Assembly (NCBI GenBank): GCA_964473325.1
Contig: CAYYOG010000002.1
Coordinates: 55,168-119,167, forward strand
Source: an uncultured Thermotogae bacterium
GTDB lineage: Bacteria; Bipolaricaulota; Bipolaricaulia; RBG-16-55-9; DRXL01
DNA: 64,000 bases
Reading direction: 5' to 3'
Shown: piece by piece, positions 330 through 57,004 of the stretch
Position numbering within the stretch: position 1 is the stretch's first letter
Layout: each line of letters begins with the position of its first letter
Notes under the pieces: generated by a model
Databases searched by the model: none
The model's input: only the letters and a program-made list of their open reading frames with translations
What the model was told of the DNA's origin: nothing
Position numbers and translations under genes: made by a program

Positions 330-367
330 ATCTTTCGATATAATAAAAGACTTTCAAAGGGGGTTTT

Positions 368-2341
368 ATGCCTTCATGGGTGACGTGGGTAGTCGTCGGA
401 TTGGTCGCAGTCGGACTGTTTATCGTGTGGCAGGGGCTGGAGCCGGGTGGTCCGGCGCTCGTCCTCGAGGGTCAGAAGATCTCTCAGAAGGAGTTTACCA
501 GGCTTTACGAGAATCTGGTCGCGCAGTATAAGCGCTTCTACGCTCAGTACGGCCAAGATTTCTCCAAGCTCTTGCAGGGGCCAGGGGGAATCGAGCGCAC
601 ACTGCAACTGCAAAGTCGTATCATTGACGATCTCTTACAAAGACGCTTGATCGCTCAAGAGGTCAAGCGTCGGCGCATCGTCATTCCCAAGGCGGACATT
701 GACGACCAAACTGAGATCGCCTTCGAGCGCATTCTGAAACAGAACAATCTCACCGAAGAGCAAGCAGAGGAGATTCTCAAGAAGCAAGGACGTACACTCG
801 AAAGCTTTAAGAAGGAACTGCACCAGACCATCGAACTCACTATGCAAACGGAACGCTTGCGCGATGTCGTCGTCGGCCCCATCGAGCCGACAGAGCAAGA
901 GCTCGCGGCGTATTTAGAAGAGCACCGTGAAAAGTACGACACCCCAGAGGAAGTGCGTGTCCGACATATTCTTATAAGAGTTCCGGAGAACGCTTCCGAA
1001 GCCGAAATCGCGCAAGCGAAAAAGCAGCTCGAAGACATTAAAAAAGAGCTAGAGAACGGGGCAGCCTTCGCTGAGCTTGCGAAAAAATATTCTCAAGATC
1101 CCGGGAGCGCTCCCAACGGCGGCGATCTAGGGTTCTTGCAGCGCGGCCAGATGGTCCAAGAATTTGAAGACGCAGCATTCTCGTTGGAACCTGGCCAGAT
1201 CAGCGATCCCGTGCGCACGCAGTTTGGGTTTCACTTAATTAAAGTCGAAGAGAAGAAGCCCGCCCAGCGTGCGGAGCTCGCACAGATCCGCGAGAGAGTG
1301 CTGAAAGACTATATCGAATCCGAGCGCGACAGACGCTTCGAGGAATTCTATCATCATCTGAAAGCCCGCGCAAAGATCTCTATCGCTGATCCAATCTTGA
1401 AGATCTTCTATCTCTATGAATATGCTGACCGCCTGGAGGAAGCTCACCAAGAGTATGCCAAGCTCAAAGATCCCAATCAAAAGCTTCATATTGCGCGGGT
1501 GTTGCAGAAGAAGCTCGAAGCCCTTGGCCCGGAAGCTGCCCCCGACCTTGTGCTCGCCCTCAAAGAAGAAATCGTGCATTTATGGTTGGCGCAGATAGCA
1601 GCCTGGCCTAACAGGGCTGACCGACGCTACGGGGTCTCGCAGATCATCGCGCTCAAGCCTAATGAGCTGCCAGGGCAAGTGTTCTTGCGGGTCACTGTCG
1701 GTGCAGGTGCTGTAGACGAGACGATACGCGTCATGCAAAGACGCTTGAAAGAGTACGGCGTTCACCAGAGCGTTGTGCTCGCTGTTGGAGATGAGCAAAT
1801 TATAATCTGGGCGCGCACCGATATGGCGAGCGCTGTGGCACGGCTTGTAAGCGTCCAGGGGAAGTTCGAGCTGAAGCGTGTCTTGCGTGAGGGTTCAGTG
1901 GGAGAGATGGTGCGGGCGACGGGGTTGGGGGAGCAGGCCATCAAAGATCGCAACGAAGCTGAAAAACCCGGCTCCGGACGCTATTATCTCGTCTCCGAAG
2001 CCCCCGTGATAGACGCGCTTCAGATCAAAGAGATCTCTGTGAATCCGGCAGGACAGTCCGCTGGCCCTATACTCAGAGTGCGCTTGAGCGAGCGCACAGT
2101 ACAGCAATTAGCCAAGGCCCTCGGTCGTGCAGAGCAAACTCTAGCTATCGTGATCGACGGCGTTGTCTACGGCACTCTCGCTGTTGGATCAGCACTACGG
2201 GAGCTATTGGCGCAGCCGGGCAGTGTCTTCGATATTCAGCTGGAAGATGCTCCCTCGGCGTCTCTGGAAGAAGCTCAAGCGCTTGCCTTGGTGCTTCGAG
2301 TTGGACCGTTCCCAACGGCTGTTCGTGTGACCCGGCCGTAA
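368..2341 (+). CDS. Membrane-anchored PpiC/parvulin-type peptidyl-prolyl isomerase (SurA/PrsA-like) with a C-terminal SecD P1-head-like periplasmic domain
   Basis: N-terminal TM helix; parvulin signature VRHILIRV...GGDLGFLQRGQMVQEFEDAAF...FGFHLIKV; the C-terminal ~300 aa resembles the SecD periplasmic P1 domain (GDEQIIIWARTD...GKFELKRV; LRVGPFP); RBS AAAGGGGG lies 5 nt upstream of the ATG. Confidence 0.7.
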   Translation: MPSWVTWVVVGLVAVGLFIVWQGLEPGGPALVLEGQKISQKEFTRLYENLVAQYKRFYAQYGQDFSKLLQGPGGIERTLQLQSRIIDDLLQRRLIAQEVKRRRIVIPKADIDDQTEIAFERILKQNNLTEEQAEEILKKQGRTLESFKKELHQTIELTMQTERLRDVVVGPIEPTEQELAAYLEEHREKYDTPEEVRVRHILIRVPENASEAEIAQAKKQLEDIKKELENGAAFAELAKKYSQDPGSAPNGGDLGFLQRGQMVQEFEDAAFSLEPGQISDPVRTQFGFHLIKVEEKKPAQRAELAQIRERVLKDYIESERDRRFEEFYHHLKARAKISIADPILKIFYLYEYADRLEEAHQEYAKLKDPNQKLHIARVLQKKLEALGPEAAPDLVLALKEEIVHLWLAQIAAWPNRADRRYGVSQIIALKPNELPGQVFLRVTVGAGAVDETIRVMQRRLKEYGVHQSVVLAVGDEQIIIWARTDMASAVARLVSVQGKFELKRVLREGSVGEMVRATGLGEQAIKDRNEAEKPGSGRYYLVSEAPVIDALQIKEISVNPAGQSAGPILRVRLSERTVQQLAKALGRAEQTLAIVIDGVVYGTLAVGSALRELLAQPGSVFDIQLEDAPSASLEEAQALALVLRVGPFPTAVRVTRP

Positions 2342-2407: not shown

Positions 2408-2731
2408 ATGTCCATCATGTACGTCTCTGATGATACGTTCGACAAAGAGGTCTTGCAGTCGTCTCAACCCGTTTTAGTAGATTTTTACGCTGACTGGTGT
2501 GGCCCCTGCCGCGCTATCGCACCGATTATCGAAGAGATCGCTCGTGAGCTCCATACCAGATTAAAAGTCGTCAAGCTCGACGTCGAGCAAAACTCCCAAA
2601 CCGCGATGGAGTACGGAGTGCAGAGTATCCCAACGCTGCTCATCTTCAAGAACGGCAAGGAAGTCGAGCGCCTGATCGGCTATATGAGTAAAAGCAAACT
2701 CTTGAGCAAGATCGAGCCGCATTTACAATAA
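2408..2731 (+). CDS. trxA: Thioredoxin
   Basis: WCGPC active site, 107 aa, RBS AAAGGAG. Confidence 0.9.
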   Translation: MSIMYVSDDTFDKEVLQSSQPVLVDFYADWCGPCRAIAPIIEEIARELHTRLKVVKLDVEQNSQTAMEYGVQSIPTLLIFKNGKEVERLIGYMSKSKLLSKIEPHLQ

Positions 2732-6598: not shown

Positions 6599-6904
6599 CT
6601 AGCGCCGCACCGCGATCTTGCCTATGGAGCTGCGTAGTTCTTTGCCGTCTGTTGTTTTGGTGAAAAAGATATACAGATAGACGCCGTTGGCGACGGGGCG
6701 GCCATCATCGCGCTGGAGGTGCCATTTGTAGGTGGCCCCTGGCACTGGCCCGCTTGAAAAGATCTTTCTCCCCGACAGATCAAAAACTTCTAAGCGCACG
6801 CTTGCTATAGCTGTCAGCGCATAACTCTCAGCTTCCAAGTCTATGGCCGGAAGCGGAACGCTGATCGCCAGGCTAATGCCCGCCAGCCATACCCACAGGC
6901 GCAT
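6599..6904 (-). CDS. Small secreted protein made of a signal peptide plus a FlgD-Ig/T9SS C-terminal-sorting-like domain
   Basis: Signal peptide; motif VFDLSGRKI...GVYLYIF typical of Por_Secre_tail/FlgD-like domains; overlaps the upstream ORF by 32 nt. Confidence 0.45.
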   Translation of the reverse strand: MRLWVWLAGISLAISVPLPAIDLEAESYALTAIASVRLEVFDLSGRKIFSSGPVPGATYKWHLQRDDGRPVANGVYLYIFFTKTTDGKELRSSIGKIAVRR

Positions 6905-8195
6905 TCTGCCTCACCAGAGGGGGGATGCCATGGGATTGCTTGATCTGGAGACGGCCTAGCTCAATACGGCGCGCTCCTTGCTTGGTCATGCCTACTAATC
7001 TATACCCGTACATCCCTGTGGGGAGCGAGCCGTTGGGCACTAGCCCCAACCATGGGCCCATCTCCTCACTGCTCAGAACGAGCTCCCCGCTCTTGAGATC
7101 GTACAGCTCCAAGCGCATGAGAATAACTCCAGACCATCGGATTACTAAAGAGCGGTTGGTGTTATACGCGCCGTTGATGGCTTCATCCCCGTGGTAGAAT
7201 CGTGCCGCGAGAGACTCTGCCAAACGCACTATTGTCTGGGCGCACGCGCTCAGCTCATCGCCAAAGGCCATGAACGCATGAAACAACTCTACGGCGACTT
7301 CGTATTGTGAGCGCCCTTGTGCCCCTTTGAGCAGATCACGGAGTTCCTTGGCTAACGCGATGACTTTATCAAATCGGGCTATCGCTGACTGCATCGGGGC
7401 AAAGCTCGTATCAGCGAGGGTCTTTTGCGAGAGCGCTACGAGCTTCTGGCGCAATTGATAAGCGTTCTCCAGGACGGCATCAAAATTCCCGATGTTGAGC
7501 ATAACGGCAATGCGCTCGAACGATTCGGCAATGCTTTCGCACAGGGCGGCGAGCGCTTCCGCATCACGGTACAGGGAATCAGAGGCAAAAGGTGGAGGCA
7601 CGTTCTTGCGCACCAGCTCGAGCTCAAGAGACGCATTGCGTAGTGCTGCTGCAGATTCGTTGATGGCACGCACCGCGTTATCTAAAGACGTGAAGACGCT
7701 ATCAGTGAGCTTAAAGTGCAAAGCCACCCCGGTTTCGTCGAAGACACGCCCAAAGAGCTTGACTATATCTAAGCTGAACGAGCGCACTCCCGCTACCGGC
7801 GAGACCGTAAACCGCAGGGAGAGTTTATTATTGAATTCATTGGACTCGCGAATTCTGCTGAAGGGCGCATCCACGGAGACCGTGAGCGTATGGGAGCCTG
7901 CTATGGCCTTCCAGGGGATTTGGATCTCCGTCGCTTTCTCTTTTTTGAGCTCAAAGAATGAGCGCGTGGCCAGCTCTTGTCCATTAAGCTCAATGATGAC
8001 ATCGAAGGATCCCAGGGCATCACCTTGGCCCTGGTTGACGATGACCGCGCGGAGGAGAGCTGCTTGCCCTTCTTCAAGGTCACCGGGTGATACCCGAGCT
8101 GTCTTTACTGTGAGATCAGGTAACCCCGACTGCCCCTGAACGCTGATCCCCCCAGAGAGCAAGATCCCTAACAAAACGATTACCCCAAGACGCAT
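6873..8195 (-). CDS. Secreted CARDB-domain protein with a helical middle region and a FlgD/T9SS-CTD-like C-terminal domain
   Basis: Signal peptide; CARDB-like LPDLTV...SNEFNN; C-terminal LELYDLKSGELV...GMYGYRL. Confidence 0.55.
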   Translation of the reverse strand: MRLGVIVLLGILLSGGISVQGQSGLPDLTVKTARVSPGDLEEGQAALLRAVIVNQGQGDALGSFDVIIELNGQELATRSFFELKKEKATEIQIPWKAIAGSHTLTVSVDAPFSRIRESNEFNNKLSLRFTVSPVAGVRSFSLDIVKLFGRVFDETGVALHFKLTDSVFTSLDNAVRAINESAAALRNASLELELVRKNVPPPFASDSLYRDAEALAALCESIAESFERIAVMLNIGNFDAVLENAYQLRQKLVALSQKTLADTSFAPMQSAIARFDKVIALAKELRDLLKGAQGRSQYEVAVELFHAFMAFGDELSACAQTIVRLAESLAARFYHGDEAINGAYNTNRSLVIRWSGVILMRLELYDLKSGELVLSSEEMGPWLGLVPNGSLPTGMYGYRLVGMTKQGARRIELGRLQIKQSHGIPPLVRQNAPVGMAGGH

Positions 8196-55792: not shown

Positions 55793-57004
55793 TTATTCAT
55801 ATCGCAGCGCTTCAACTGGGTCGAGCCGCGCTGCACGCGCCGCCGGATAGACCCCAAAGATCAACCCCACTATCAGCGAGAACCCCAGGGCTAGAAAGAT
55901 AGCATACGATGGGACAATCAGCGGCCATTTGCTGAACGACGCGATCACCGCTGCTGCTCCAATGCCCATCAGCAACCCTATCACTCCCCCCAGCACGCTC
56001 ACGAACACAGACTCAGTCAAAAACTGTAAAAGAATATCTCTGCGCTTCGCGCCGAGGGCTTTGCGAATCCCAATCTCTCGCGTGCGCTCGACAACAGAGA
56101 CCAAGAGAATGTTCATAATCCCGATGCCGCCAACGAGGAGGGCAATTGCAGCAATGCCTCCCAACAAAAATGTCATGGTCGCTGCGTTCTGATTGACTGT
56201 TTCTATGACCTCTTGCTGCGCGCGCACGCGATAGTCTTCGGAATTAGAAATTCTGCGAGATAAGATAAACTCAACTTGGGCAATGGCTTCATCGACTTGG
56301 TCGGTGCTGGCAACTCGCAAGTTATAAAAATTCACGGTGCGGTCTCCGGTGATACGCCGCGCGACGGTCGTGACCGGCAGATAAATTCTATTGTCGTATT
56401 GCCCAAAGCCGAGCTGCCCTTTACTCGTCATCACGCCAATAATAGTGAACAAGAAGCGCGTCCCCGCGCGCTCCAGCACGACTTCTTTGCCCAAGGGGTC
56501 TTCGTCGGGGAAGAGCTGCTGCGCCACTTCGCTGCCGAGCACCAGCACTTTGGTGTAATTCTCTAAATCTTGTGCGGAGAAGAACCGGCCTCTAGCAATG
56601 AGATAATTCACGACACTGGGGTACGCTGGGGTCACACCCACGAGCGTTGTCTGAAGGCTGCGATCTCTGTATTTGATCGTCCCGCTGGTCTGAATGACGG
56701 GCACGACGTCACGCACTGCTGGGGCTTTCGCTAATTCGTTAGCGAGTTCCAGAGTGAACGTCTCTGTGGTTTGGGTGCTGGCGACTCCTGCACGCCCGAC
56801 GCGAAATGCTGGGCTGACAGTGATTAAATCTGCTCCCAGCGACTCGACGCGCGAGCGAATGTCATATGTTGCCCCCTGGCCAACAGAGATCATCGCGATC
56901 ACCGATGCGACGCCGATCAGAATCCCCAAGACCGAGAGCGCCGTGCGCAATTTGTGCGCGCTCAAGCTATTTATAGTCGTGCGCAGCATCTCCAGAAAGC
57001 TCAT
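55793..57004 (-). CDS. MacB/FtsX-type ABC efflux permease
   Basis: N-terminal TM, large periplasmic domain, C-terminal FtsX 3-TM bundle. Confidence 0.8.
   Translation of the reverse strand: MSFLEMLRTTINSLSAHKLRTALSVLGILIGVASVIAMISVGQGATYDIRSRVESLGADLITVSPAFRVGRAGVASTQTTETFTLELANELAKAPAVRDVVPVIQTSGTIKYRDRSLQTTLVGVTPAYPSVVNYLIARGRFFSAQDLENYTKVLVLGSEVAQQLFPDEDPLGKEVVLERAGTRFLFTIIGVMTSKGQLGFGQYDNRIYLPVTTVARRITGDRTVNFYNLRVASTDQVDEAIAQVEFILSRRISNSEDYRVRAQQEVIETVNQNAATMTFLLGGIAAIALLVGGIGIMNILLVSVVERTREIGIRKALGAKRRDILLQFLTESVFVSVLGGVIGLLMGIGAAAVIASFSKWPLIVPSYAIFLALGFSLIVGLIFGVYPAARAARLDPVEALRYE

What the first reader, a model, noticed from the sequence alone, without database searches (positions are those of the whole stretch)
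368..2341. Parvulin PPIase fused to a SecD P1-head-like periplasmic domain
One 657-aa ORF combines three parts: an N-terminal membrane anchor with a SurA/PpiD-like chaperone region, a canonical PpiC/parvulin domain, and a ~300-aa C-terminal region. That last region reads like the periplasmic P1 head and base of SecD (segments ...QIIIWARTD...QGKFELKRV and ...LVLRVGPFP), yet the 12-TM SecDF core is absent. I do not recognise a PPIase-chaperone / SecD-head fusion as a described architecture. It would be expected to act at the periplasmic exit of the Sec translocon, where PpiD and SecDF normally act as separate proteins.
Basis: partly seen in the sequence, partly recalled or inferred. Interest (0 to 1): 0.6.

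Follow-up and report, generated by a model that had tools for sequence, protein, structure and literature searches.

The report
Membrane-anchored foldase carrying a SecD P1 domain
One real, conserved gene of an uncultured Bipolaricaulota (Acetothermia) lineage joins a PpiD/PrsA/SurA-type membrane-anchored folding helper to a full copy of the outward-facing "P1" domain of the secretion motor SecD, without the motor's membrane part; these two components touch each other as separate proteins in E. coli.

Summary

**The gene.** ORF 368..2341 (+) encodes 657 aa in this order:
- an N-terminal hydrophobic anchor;
- a SurA-like chaperone core;
- one parvulin domain that keeps the catalytic-type motifs;
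- a five-helix linker of about 95 aa;
- a complete SecD P1 domain (base plus head, aa ~437-657), with the stop codon directly after its last strand.

**Evidence for the P1 domain.**
- Pfam SecDF_P1_head scores 31.8 bits, above its gathering score of 27.
- TIGR01129 (secD) gives E 1.9e-13, colinear over aa 447-654.

**It is not SecD and not an artefact.**
- There is no Sec_GG motif, no RND-like membrane core and no yajC/secF context.
- The identical protein occurs in three assemblies.
- About 75 clusters of orthologues, all Bipolaricaulota, keep the architecture.
- P1 is under purifying selection (dN/dS 0.12-0.19).

**Status and function.** Databases call it only "peptidylprolyl isomerase", and I found no paper describing it. 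The inferred function is a translocon-proximal holdase/foldase whose P1 acts as an unpowered substrate-capture or hand-off module. I could not show whether the same genomes also hold canonical SecDF. I rate it a new variant of a known kind.

The parts
339..367 (+). Putative -10 box (TATAAT, 340-345) and Shine-Dalgarno-like AAAGGGGG just upstream of the ATG
   Evidence: Read directly from the sequence. The consensus scan did not call a full sigma-70 promoter here, so this is suggestive only.
368..2341 (+). Complete CDS, 657 aa plus stop: anchored SurA-like/parvulin foldase fused to a SecD P1 domain
   Evidence: ORF list. Identical protein in three assemblies. About 75 orthologue clusters.
368..445 (+). 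N-terminal hydrophobic signal-anchor (aa ~1-26; helix 5-21)
   Evidence: Kyte-Doolittle window. AF2 helix 5-21 with low pLDDT, as is usual for a lone membrane helix. The SurA_N_3 model, which starts at the anchor, aligns from aa 3. Topology (N-in, C-out) is inferred.
446..937 (+). SurA-like N-terminal chaperone domain (aa ~27-190)
   Evidence: Pfam SurA_N_3, E 3.4e-14, 53.4 bits. Foldseek of the full model: SurA, PrsA and PEB4, E down to 7e-14.
938..1276 (+). Parvulin (PpiC-type) PPIase domain (aa ~191-303) with His199, GGDLG (Asp253) and FGFH289LIKV motifs
   Evidence: Pfam Rotamase_3 E 1.5e-35, Rotamase E 1.9e-33. 42-45% identity to PrsA and SurA-P2 PPIase structures. dN/dS 0.05-0.08.
1277..1387 (+). 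Long C-terminal helix (aa ~304-340) that completes the SurA/PrsA-type 'NC' chaperone core
   Evidence: AF2 helix 308-333. NF000809 (PrsA-like PPIase, 336 positions) aligns aa 34-341, E 4.4e-48. Structural match to the SurA N-P1-C fragment 2pv3.
1388..1675 (+). Five-helix linker (aa ~341-436) between the chaperone core and P1
   Evidence: AF2 helices 342-351, 356-365, 371-385, 392-412 and 416-428, pLDDT >90. No Pfam family matches. Homologous to the stretch after the parvulin domain in SurA_N-Rotamase-TPR proteins.
1676..1897 (+). SecD P1 base, N-terminal part (aa ~437-510)
1898..2311 (+). SecD P1 head (aa ~511-648; boundaries approximate)
2312..2341 (+). Last P1-base strand (aa 649-657, ...AVRVTRP) followed directly by the stop codon. 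In SecD, TM2 would follow here.
   Evidence: Alignment A3: canonical SecD continues with 'VGPxLG...' and membrane helices, whereas this family ends. All orthologues end at the same point.

Best explanation
**What it is (shown).** This is a single-pass, membrane-anchored extracytoplasmic foldase of the SurA/PrsA/PpiD kind. It has an NC chaperone core and one parvulin domain that keeps the catalytic-type residues. A rigid helical linker extends its C-terminus to a complete paralogous copy of the SecD P1 domain (base plus head). The proton-conducting membrane domain of SecDF is absent.

**How it most likely works (inferred).**
- The N-terminal anchor holds the protein on the outer face of the cytoplasmic membrane, near SecYEG, as PpiD is held in E. 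coli.
- The chaperone core and the P1 head both bind unfolded chains as they emerge.
- P1 has no ion-driven membrane part, so it cannot pull. It would act as an unpowered second capture site that blocks back-sliding and passes the chain on to the chaperone/PPIase, or on to the real SecDF.
- The gene thus hard-wires in one chain the PpiD-to-SecD-P1-head contact that in E. coli occurs between separate proteins.
For: **Domain identity**
- Pfam and NCBIfam profiles.
- AF2 models with pLDDT 90.7 and 90.2.
- The top 8 Foldseek PDB hits are all SecDF.
- The N-terminal half matches SurA, PrsA and PEB4.

**Real and functional**
- The identical protein occurs in three assemblies.
- All 72 full-length sequences among P0191-P0264, 53-85% identical, have P1 at ~445-657, and the family ends at the same point where canonical SecD continues into membrane helices.
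- Five genome copies have no internal stops. dN/dS for P1 is 0.12-0.19.
- A natural in-frame deletion variant loses only the parvulin domain and keeps the core, the linker and P1.

**Functional link from the literature**
- SecD's P1 head is its substrate-binding site.
- PpiD photo-crosslinks to SecD P1-head residue 359 and cooperates with SecDF late in translocation (PMC7793623; PMC9643414).

**Origin of P1**
- Its closest relatives are P1 domains of Bipolaricaulota SecD (P0076, P0077) and a stand-alone P1 protein from the same phylum (P0012).
Against: - No experiment bears on this protein. Localisation, topology, substrate binding, PPIase activity and any contact with SecYEG are all inferred.
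- P1 domains also occur in beta-helix/NosD/LRR surface-type proteins and as stand-alone proteins. P1 may therefore have a role unrelated to the translocon.
- The gene's neighbours are nurA/rad50 upstream and thioredoxin downstream. They give no Sec-related context.
- I could not show that the fusion-bearing genomes also contain a canonical SecDF.
- P1 is somewhat less constrained than the parvulin domain.
Confidence: 0.55

Rival explanations
1. P1 is a docking module rather than a substrate binder. In SecDF the P1 base pairs with the P4 domain of SecF. A free P1 base could pair in the same way with SecF-P4 or SecD-P1, or with another copy of itself. That would recruit the foldase onto the SecDF/SecYEG holo-translocon. 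If the lineage had a reduced SecD, it could even substitute for its P1.
For: The whole P1 is retained, base included, not only the head. The full-length model has pTM 0.72, which suggests a fairly fixed arrangement. PpiD and the SecD periplasmic domain are in physical contact in E. coli.
Against: No complex was modelled or measured. Canonical full-length SecD with its own P1 exists in the phylum, so substitution is not needed. The presence or form of SecDF in the fusion clade itself is unknown.
Confidence: 0.2
2. P1 here is a general extracytoplasmic binding or anchoring domain unrelated to Sec. It might attach to a cell-envelope component of the unusual toga-type envelope. The protein would then be an ordinary PrsA/SurA-like foldase with a positioning domain.
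For: P1 domains occur in proteins with no link to translocation. Examples are giant beta-helix/NosD/LRR proteins (P0013, P0014, P0018, P0022, P0030) and short lipoprotein-like or anchored stand-alone proteins (P0012, P0026, P0056). Bipolaricaulota have an atypical diderm, LPS-less, toga-like envelope (PMC6092417; bioRxiv 10.1101/2025.11.21.689855).
Against: The only known activity of P1 is binding translocating polypeptides. The fusion partner is itself an unfolded-protein binder that works beside SecD in E. coli, which makes a shared substrate the simpler reading.
Confidence: 0.15
3. Artefact: an assembly chimera, or a decaying remnant of a truncated secD read through from a PPIase gene.
For: None found. 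The original worry was only that the architecture is unusual.
Against: - The same 657-aa sequence is in Logan SRR7473445, Logan ERR1612259 and GCA_900096875.1.
- About 75 clusters, five GTDB species genomes and a 670-kb JGI contig carry it intact.
- The stop is conserved right after P1.
- dN/dS is well below 1 in every domain.
- There is no composition break inside the gene.
Confidence: 0.01

Closest known systems
E. coli PpiD (with its TPR partner YfgM)
   Same: Type II single-pass anchor, SurA-like chaperone region plus one parvulin domain, periplasmic. PpiD sits at SecYEG, contacts emerging chains and crosslinks to the SecD P1 head. Functionally this is the best analogue.
   Different: It is not an orthologue by score: NF008054 gives 73 bits against a cut-off of 493, and only aa 175-328 align. 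PpiD has two extra inserted domains and, as I recall from the literature, an inactive parvulin. Here the parvulin keeps the His/Asp/His-type motifs. PpiD has no P1 domain.
PrsA (Bacillota) / SurA / PEB4-type foldases
   Same: An NC chaperone core with a parvulin inserted. These give the best sequence and fold matches for aa ~30-345: NF000809 E 4.4e-48, SurA 1m5y E 6.5e-37, Foldseek E 7e-14.
   Different: PrsA is a lipoprotein and SurA is soluble with two parvulins. None carries a helical linker plus a SecD P1 domain.
SecD / SecDF (T. thermophilus 3AQO, 3AQP; D. radiodurans 5XAN, 5YHF)
   Same: The C-terminal 220 aa have the full P1 fold (base plus head) and the conserved P1 motifs.
   Different: There is no TM1/Sec_GG motif, no TM2-6 (PF02355), no SecF half and no proton path. 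TIGR01129 gives 50 bits against a cut-off of 244. It therefore cannot be a PMF-driven motor by itself.
Other P1 domains outside SecDF found here (stand-alone P0012 = KGY79_07640; beta-helix/NosD/LRR proteins P0013, P0014, P0018, P0022, P0030)
   Same: A SecD-type P1 (SecD_1st plus SecDF_P1_head) detached from the membrane core. The nearest sequence relatives of this P1 are among them.
   Different: They have different partners or none. None of the 66 profile hits outside the family combines P1 with a parvulin. These proteins are also uncharacterised.
SurA_N-Rotamase-TPR proteins of 800-1000 aa (P0016, P0023-P0025)
   Same: The same anchored SurA_N-plus-parvulin module and a homologous post-parvulin helical stretch. 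They look like PpiD and a YfgM-like TPR partner in one chain, a parallel case of fusing a PpiD-type protein to a Sec-associated partner.
   Different: The C-terminal extension is a TPR array instead of P1.

Membership tests
SurA/PrsA/PpiD-type parvulin foldases | SurA-like N-terminal chaperone domain | tested here: met
   PF13624 SurA_N_3, 53.4 bits against a cut-off of 27.2, aa 3-156. Fold match to SurA, PrsA and PEB4.
SurA/PrsA/PpiD-type parvulin foldases | Parvulin (PpiC-type) domain inserted in the chaperone core | tested here: met
   PF13616, 122.7 bits. PF00639, 115.7 bits.
SurA/PrsA/PpiD-type parvulin foldases | C-terminal helix that packs back on the N-domain (NC core) | tested here: met
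   AF2 helix 308-333. NF000809 alignment spans aa 34-341 of a 336-position PrsA-like model. Match to the SurA N-P1-C fragment 2pv3.
SurA/PrsA/PpiD-type parvulin foldases | Catalytic-type parvulin residues (His / Asp-or-Cys / His) | tested here: met
   His199 (VRHILI), Asp253 (GGDLG) and His289 (FGFHLIKV). They align with E. coli Par10 motifs at 46% identity (the Par10 sequence was recalled from memory). Enzymatic activity was not tested.
E. coli-type PpiD (NF008054 equivalog) | Whole-protein score above the curated cut-off; two extra inserted domains | tested here: not met
   73.3 bits against a cut-off of 493. Only aa 175-328 align.
E. coli-type PpiD (functional class) | N-terminal single membrane anchor, periplasmic body | tested here: met
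   Hydrophobic aa 5-21, then soluble domains. Orientation is inferred.
E. coli-type PpiD (functional class) | Association with SecYEG and with emerging chains | not testable with these tools
   Needs crosslinking or co-purification.
SecD / SecDF | P1 periplasmic domain (base plus head) | tested here: met
SecD / SecDF | TM1 with Sec_GG motif directly before P1 | tested here: not met
   No PF07549 hit. P1 is preceded by a five-helix soluble linker.
SecD / SecDF | RND-like membrane domain after P1 (PF02355, TM2-6) with the proton path | tested here: not met
   The protein stops 3 residues after the last P1 strand. No PF02355 hit and no further hydrophobic helices.
SecD / SecDF | Curated whole-protein score (TIGR01129 cut-off 244.4) | tested here: not met
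   50.3 bits.
SecD / SecDF | yajC-secD-secF operon context | tested here: not met
   Neighbours are nurA/rad50/mre11 upstream and thioredoxin downstream. Canonical Bipolaricaulota secD genes do follow yajC.

The most novel reading that the evidence does not exclude
The SecD P1 domain may be an autonomous, mobile, unfolded-polypeptide-binding module that works without the proton motor. On this reading it has been recruited repeatedly outside SecDF: onto a PpiD-like foldase (this gene), as stand-alone anchored or lipoprotein forms, and into giant beta-helix/LRR surface proteins. That would define a new class of extracytoplasmic chaperone or capture domain. The fusion would also be natural 'Rosetta-stone' evidence that the PpiD-to-P1-head hand-off is an ancient, general step of bacterial secretion.
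Probability: 0.35. Interest if true: 0.7.

Novelty: new variant of a known kind. Interest (0 to 1): 0.55.

Why it matters
- SecDF's P1 head is thought to work only as the moving arm of a proton-driven motor. A conserved, selected P1 with no motor, tied to a chaperone, argues that P1 has useful activity on its own: capture, anti-backsliding or hand-off.
- It gives a simple soluble construct for testing what P1 binds.
- It independently supports the PpiD-SecD P1-head partnership, which so far rests on crosslinking in E. coli and Vibrio.
- P1 also turns up in other architectures, so the domain has a wider, unstudied life outside SecDF.
- The gene is confined to an uncultured thermophilic lineage, which limits its immediate reach.

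Tried and rejected
- **Single-sequence PDB search of aa 330-657.** 3aqo_A was the best hit, but only at E 0.34. That is not significant on its own, so I needed profiles and the fold comparison.
- **Word-index search with aa 330-657.** It returned only 10 hits, mostly fragments, and wrongly suggested a tiny family. The N-terminal query showed about 75 clusters.
- **afdb50 fold search.** The library was not available.
- **Canonical secDF in the same genome.** Every route failed.
  - There is none in the 64-kb window. The only candidate, 55793-57004, is MacB/FtsX.
  - A metagenome scan with Bipolaricaulota SecD found 37 loci, none on a contig known to carry the fusion.
  - Flanking genes of those loci are only about 40% identical to window genes.
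  - NCBI accession ranges of the SecD and fusion MAGs do not overlap.
- **TPR nature of the linker.** No TPR family matched, even at E 10.
- **MSA for the full-length model.** Adding SecD sequences to the full-length alignment misaligned them onto the N-terminus, so I left them out (A6).
- **Assembly chimera or pseudogene.** Rejected.
Full report

Yes. The window has an ATG-started ORF at 368..2341 on the + strand, 657 aa. A GGGGG Shine-Dalgarno-like run and a TATAAT lie just upstream. GC content and skews show no break inside the gene.

Pfam finds these domains:
- SurA_N_3, aa 3-156, 53.4 bits against a cut-off of 27.2.
- Three overlapping parvulin models, aa 174-309, best E 1.5e-35.
- SecDF_P1_head, aa 535-649, 31.8 bits, above the gathering score of 27.
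- A weak SecD_1st match at aa 449-480.

NCBIfam adds the following:
- A 336-position PrsA-like PPIase model (NF000809) aligns aa 34-341, E 4.4e-48.
- TIGR01129 (secD) aligns colinearly from aa 447 to 654, model positions 36-232 of 397, E 1.9e-13. Model positions 36-232 are the P1 part of SecD.
- Three SecDF models hit the same stretch.

**2. Fold of the C-terminal part**

- A single-sequence PDB search gave the T. thermophilus P1 crystal structure 3aqo_A as the best hit. It was colinear over chain residues 28-223 of 229, but only at E 0.34.
- I built a 105-sequence alignment of family members plus SecD P1 homologues. AlphaFold2 on aa 330-657 gave mean pLDDT 90.7 and pTM 0.84. The model has five helices followed by an alpha/beta domain.
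- Foldseek against the PDB returned SecDF entries as the top eight hits: 5yhf, 5xap, 5xan, 3aqo and 3aqp. E-values ran from 3e-9 to 1e-6, probability was 1.0, and TM was 0.61 normalised to the isolated P1 domain. The ninth hit had E 0.08.
- A direct alignment with 12 P1 domains shows base-head-base colinearity. It also shows the shared motifs 'LAIVxDxxVY' and 'EAxxLAxxLRxGxxPxxV'.
- Where canonical SecD continues with 'VGPxLG' and membrane helices, this family ends with ...VRVTRP and a stop.
- So residues ~437-657 are a complete SecD P1 domain. Residues ~341-436 are a separate helical linker with no family match.

**3. The N-terminal half**

- PDB sequence hits are SurA (E 6.5e-37), PrsA and PEB4.
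- The full-length AlphaFold2 model has pLDDT 90.2 and pTM 0.72. It shows a helix at aa 5-21, a helical chaperone domain, the parvulin, and a long return helix at 308-333.
- Foldseek places this half with SurA, PrsA and PEB4-type foldases.
- The parvulin keeps His199, GGDLG (Asp253) and FGFH289LIKV.
- The E. coli PpiD equivalog model is far from met, at 73 bits against 493. The protein is therefore PpiD-like in layout (anchor plus chaperone plus parvulin) but is not a PpiD orthologue.

**4. Not an artefact**

- The identical 657-aa protein is encoded in Logan SRR7473445, Logan ERR1612259 and NCBI GCA_900096875.1.
- A search with aa 1-440 found about 75 clusters (at 90% identity) of 639-667-aa orthologues, 53-85% identical. 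Where named, they are Candidatus Bipolaricaulota, Bipolaricaulia or Acetothermia. They include UniRef H5SJ72 / BAL56208, annotated 'peptidylprolyl isomerase'.
- An HMM of P1 domains hits every full-length one at ~445-657, ending at the C-terminus. The next relatives (38% identity or less, 420-544 aa) have no P1.
- Among 185,579 species-representative genomes, five carry the full fusion. A complete Bipolaricaulota chromosome (CP070725.1) has only a 33%-identical homologue matching aa 28-383, with no match to P1. The fusion is therefore confined to one clade of the phylum.
- An exhaustive profile search of 1.84 billion representatives found only two 50%-identity clusters of the family.
- Codon-level comparison with the five genome copies shows no stops. 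dN/dS is 0.12-0.19 for P1, 0.05-0.08 for the parvulin, 0.06-0.11 for the N-domain and 0.07-0.16 for the linker.

**5. Surroundings**

- Upstream on the same strand are mre11/rad50/nurA-type genes. The window starts inside nurA.
- Downstream, after 66 nt, is a thioredoxin gene (2408-2731). Then comes an oppositely oriented ABC uptake operon.
- In a more distant orthologue on a 670-kb JGI contig the upstream genes differ. Thioredoxin still follows, after an inserted S9 peptidase gene.
- Nothing in the neighbourhood is Sec-related.
- The window has no other P1 domain and no SecD/SecF. The one multi-pass candidate, 55793-57004, is MacB/FtsX.

**6. Where did P1 come from, and is P1 outside SecDF unique?**

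- The closest non-family relatives of this P1 are Bipolaricaulota SecD proteins (P0076, P0077), which sit in canonical yajC-secD operons. Equally close is a 329-aa stand-alone anchored P1 protein (P0012 = KGY79_07640). It comes from the same MAG, GCA_018334915.1, as one of those canonical SecDs.
- The profile search also revealed P1 domains inside giant beta-helix/NosD/LRR proteins (P0013, 2016 aa; P0014, 1546 aa; P0018, P0022, P0030). It also found them in short, signal- or lipobox-bearing P1-only proteins (P0021, P0026, P0039, P0046, P0056).
- Detached P1 domains therefore exist more widely. The parvulin-P1 combination was seen only in this clade.
- The linker region is homologous to the post-parvulin stretch of SurA_N-Rotamase-TPR proteins of 800-1000 aa. 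These resemble PpiD fused to a YfgM-like TPR partner.

**7. Mechanism**

Established knowledge:
- The P1 head is SecD's substrate-binding site. It moves under control of the proton-conducting membrane domain.
- PpiD is an ATP-independent chaperone at SecYEG. It crosslinks to SecD P1-head residue 359 and cooperates with SecDF late in translocation (PMC7793623; PMC9643414).

Inference:
- This protein sits, via its anchor, on the outer face of the cytoplasmic membrane.
- It offers two unfolded-chain binding modules, the NC core and the P1 head, plus a probably active PPIase.
- Lacking any ion path, its P1 cannot pull. It would act as a passive capture, anti-backsliding or hand-off site.

Supporting observation: a natural variant (P0004, on a 60-kb contig and in a second assembly) has a clean 327-nt in-frame deletion of exactly the parvulin domain, between CCCAGAG direct repeats. 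It keeps the core, the linker and P1. This fits the known dispensability of parvulin domains for SurA/PpiD chaperone function (my recollection of the literature). It suggests that core plus P1 is the essential unit.

Rivals:
- P1 as a docking module onto SecF-P4 or SecD.
- P1 as a Sec-unrelated envelope-binding domain, suggested by the beta-helix/LRR fusions and by the phylum's atypical toga-like, LPS-less diderm envelope.
- Artefact, which is excluded.

**8. Comparison and novelty**

- In layout it works like PpiD or PrsA and is a member of the broad SurA/PrsA/PpiD parvulin-foldase kind.
- It is not SecD. The TM1/Sec_GG motif, the RND-like core, the curated score and the operon context were all tested and not met.
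- Full-text searches found no description of a parvulin-P1 fusion or of detached P1 domains. The Pfam names and accessions do not occur in the library.
- Databases label the protein only as a PPIase, or label C-terminal fragments as 'SecD'.
- I rate it a new variant of a known kind, of moderate interest (0.55).

**9. Open point**

Whether the fusion-bearing genomes also have canonical SecDF was not resolved. It is likely, because canonical yajC-secD is present in the phylum. Absence would change the interpretation.

Noticed in passing
L004 10001-11590 (ENA ERZ27245615 k141_28292) and L005; corresponds to window gene nt 580-906 (window 947-1273): An orthologue (P0004, 529 aa) has a clean 327-nt in-frame deletion that removes exactly the parvulin domain. 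The deletion is bounded by a CCCAGAG direct repeat. The chaperone core, the linker and P1 are kept. It was seen in two or three assemblies.
   Followed up: partly
L127 4808-5797 (GCA_018334915.1, JAGXLB010000075.1) and L087 6001-6985 (same assembly): One Bipolaricaulota MAG holds two P1-bearing genes. One is a canonical yajC-secD (KGY79_09550). The other is a stand-alone, N-terminally anchored 329-aa SecD-P1 protein (KGY79_07640). The second lies in an accessory region next to BREX brxL, an LRR protein and a transposase.
   Followed up: partly
Proteins P0013 (2016 aa), P0014 (1546 aa), P0018, P0022, P0030; L128 5001-6293 for P0015: Complete SecD-type P1 domains are embedded in large beta-helix/NosD/LRR surface-type proteins and in short secreted or lipoprotein-like proteins from metagenomes. 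This is an apparently undescribed spread of the P1 domain outside SecDF.
   Followed up: partly
Proteins P0016, P0023, P0024, P0025: The nearest relatives of the post-parvulin linker are 800-1000-aa anchored SurA_N-Rotamase proteins with long C-terminal TPR arrays. One also has DUF3105. They look like PpiD fused to a YfgM-like TPR partner.
   Followed up: no
window 2408-2731 (+); L089 6995-7309: A cytoplasmic-type thioredoxin gene (WCGPC) stays immediately downstream of the fusion gene in two otherwise different gene contexts. In L089 an S9 peptidase gene is inserted between them. The reason is unknown.
   Followed up: no
window 6599-8195 (-): A 440-aa CARDB-domain protein with an N-terminal signal-like segment overlaps a 101-aa ORF that has no family match. 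The pair is conserved in synteny in L001-L005.
   Followed up: no
The word-indexed protein search with the C-terminal 328 aa returned only 10 sequences, mostly fragments. It missed about 75 full-length orthologue clusters that the N-terminal query found. Small hit counts from that tool should not be read as rarity.
   Followed up: yes
L006 (CAZODX010000083.1) and L009 (CAMTVK010000009.1): Two species-representative MAGs that carry 75-81%-identical orthologues are labelled 'uncultured Thermotogae bacterium' and 'Candidatus Fraserbacteria bacterium'. These are probably taxonomic mislabels of Bipolaricaulota bins.
   Followed up: no
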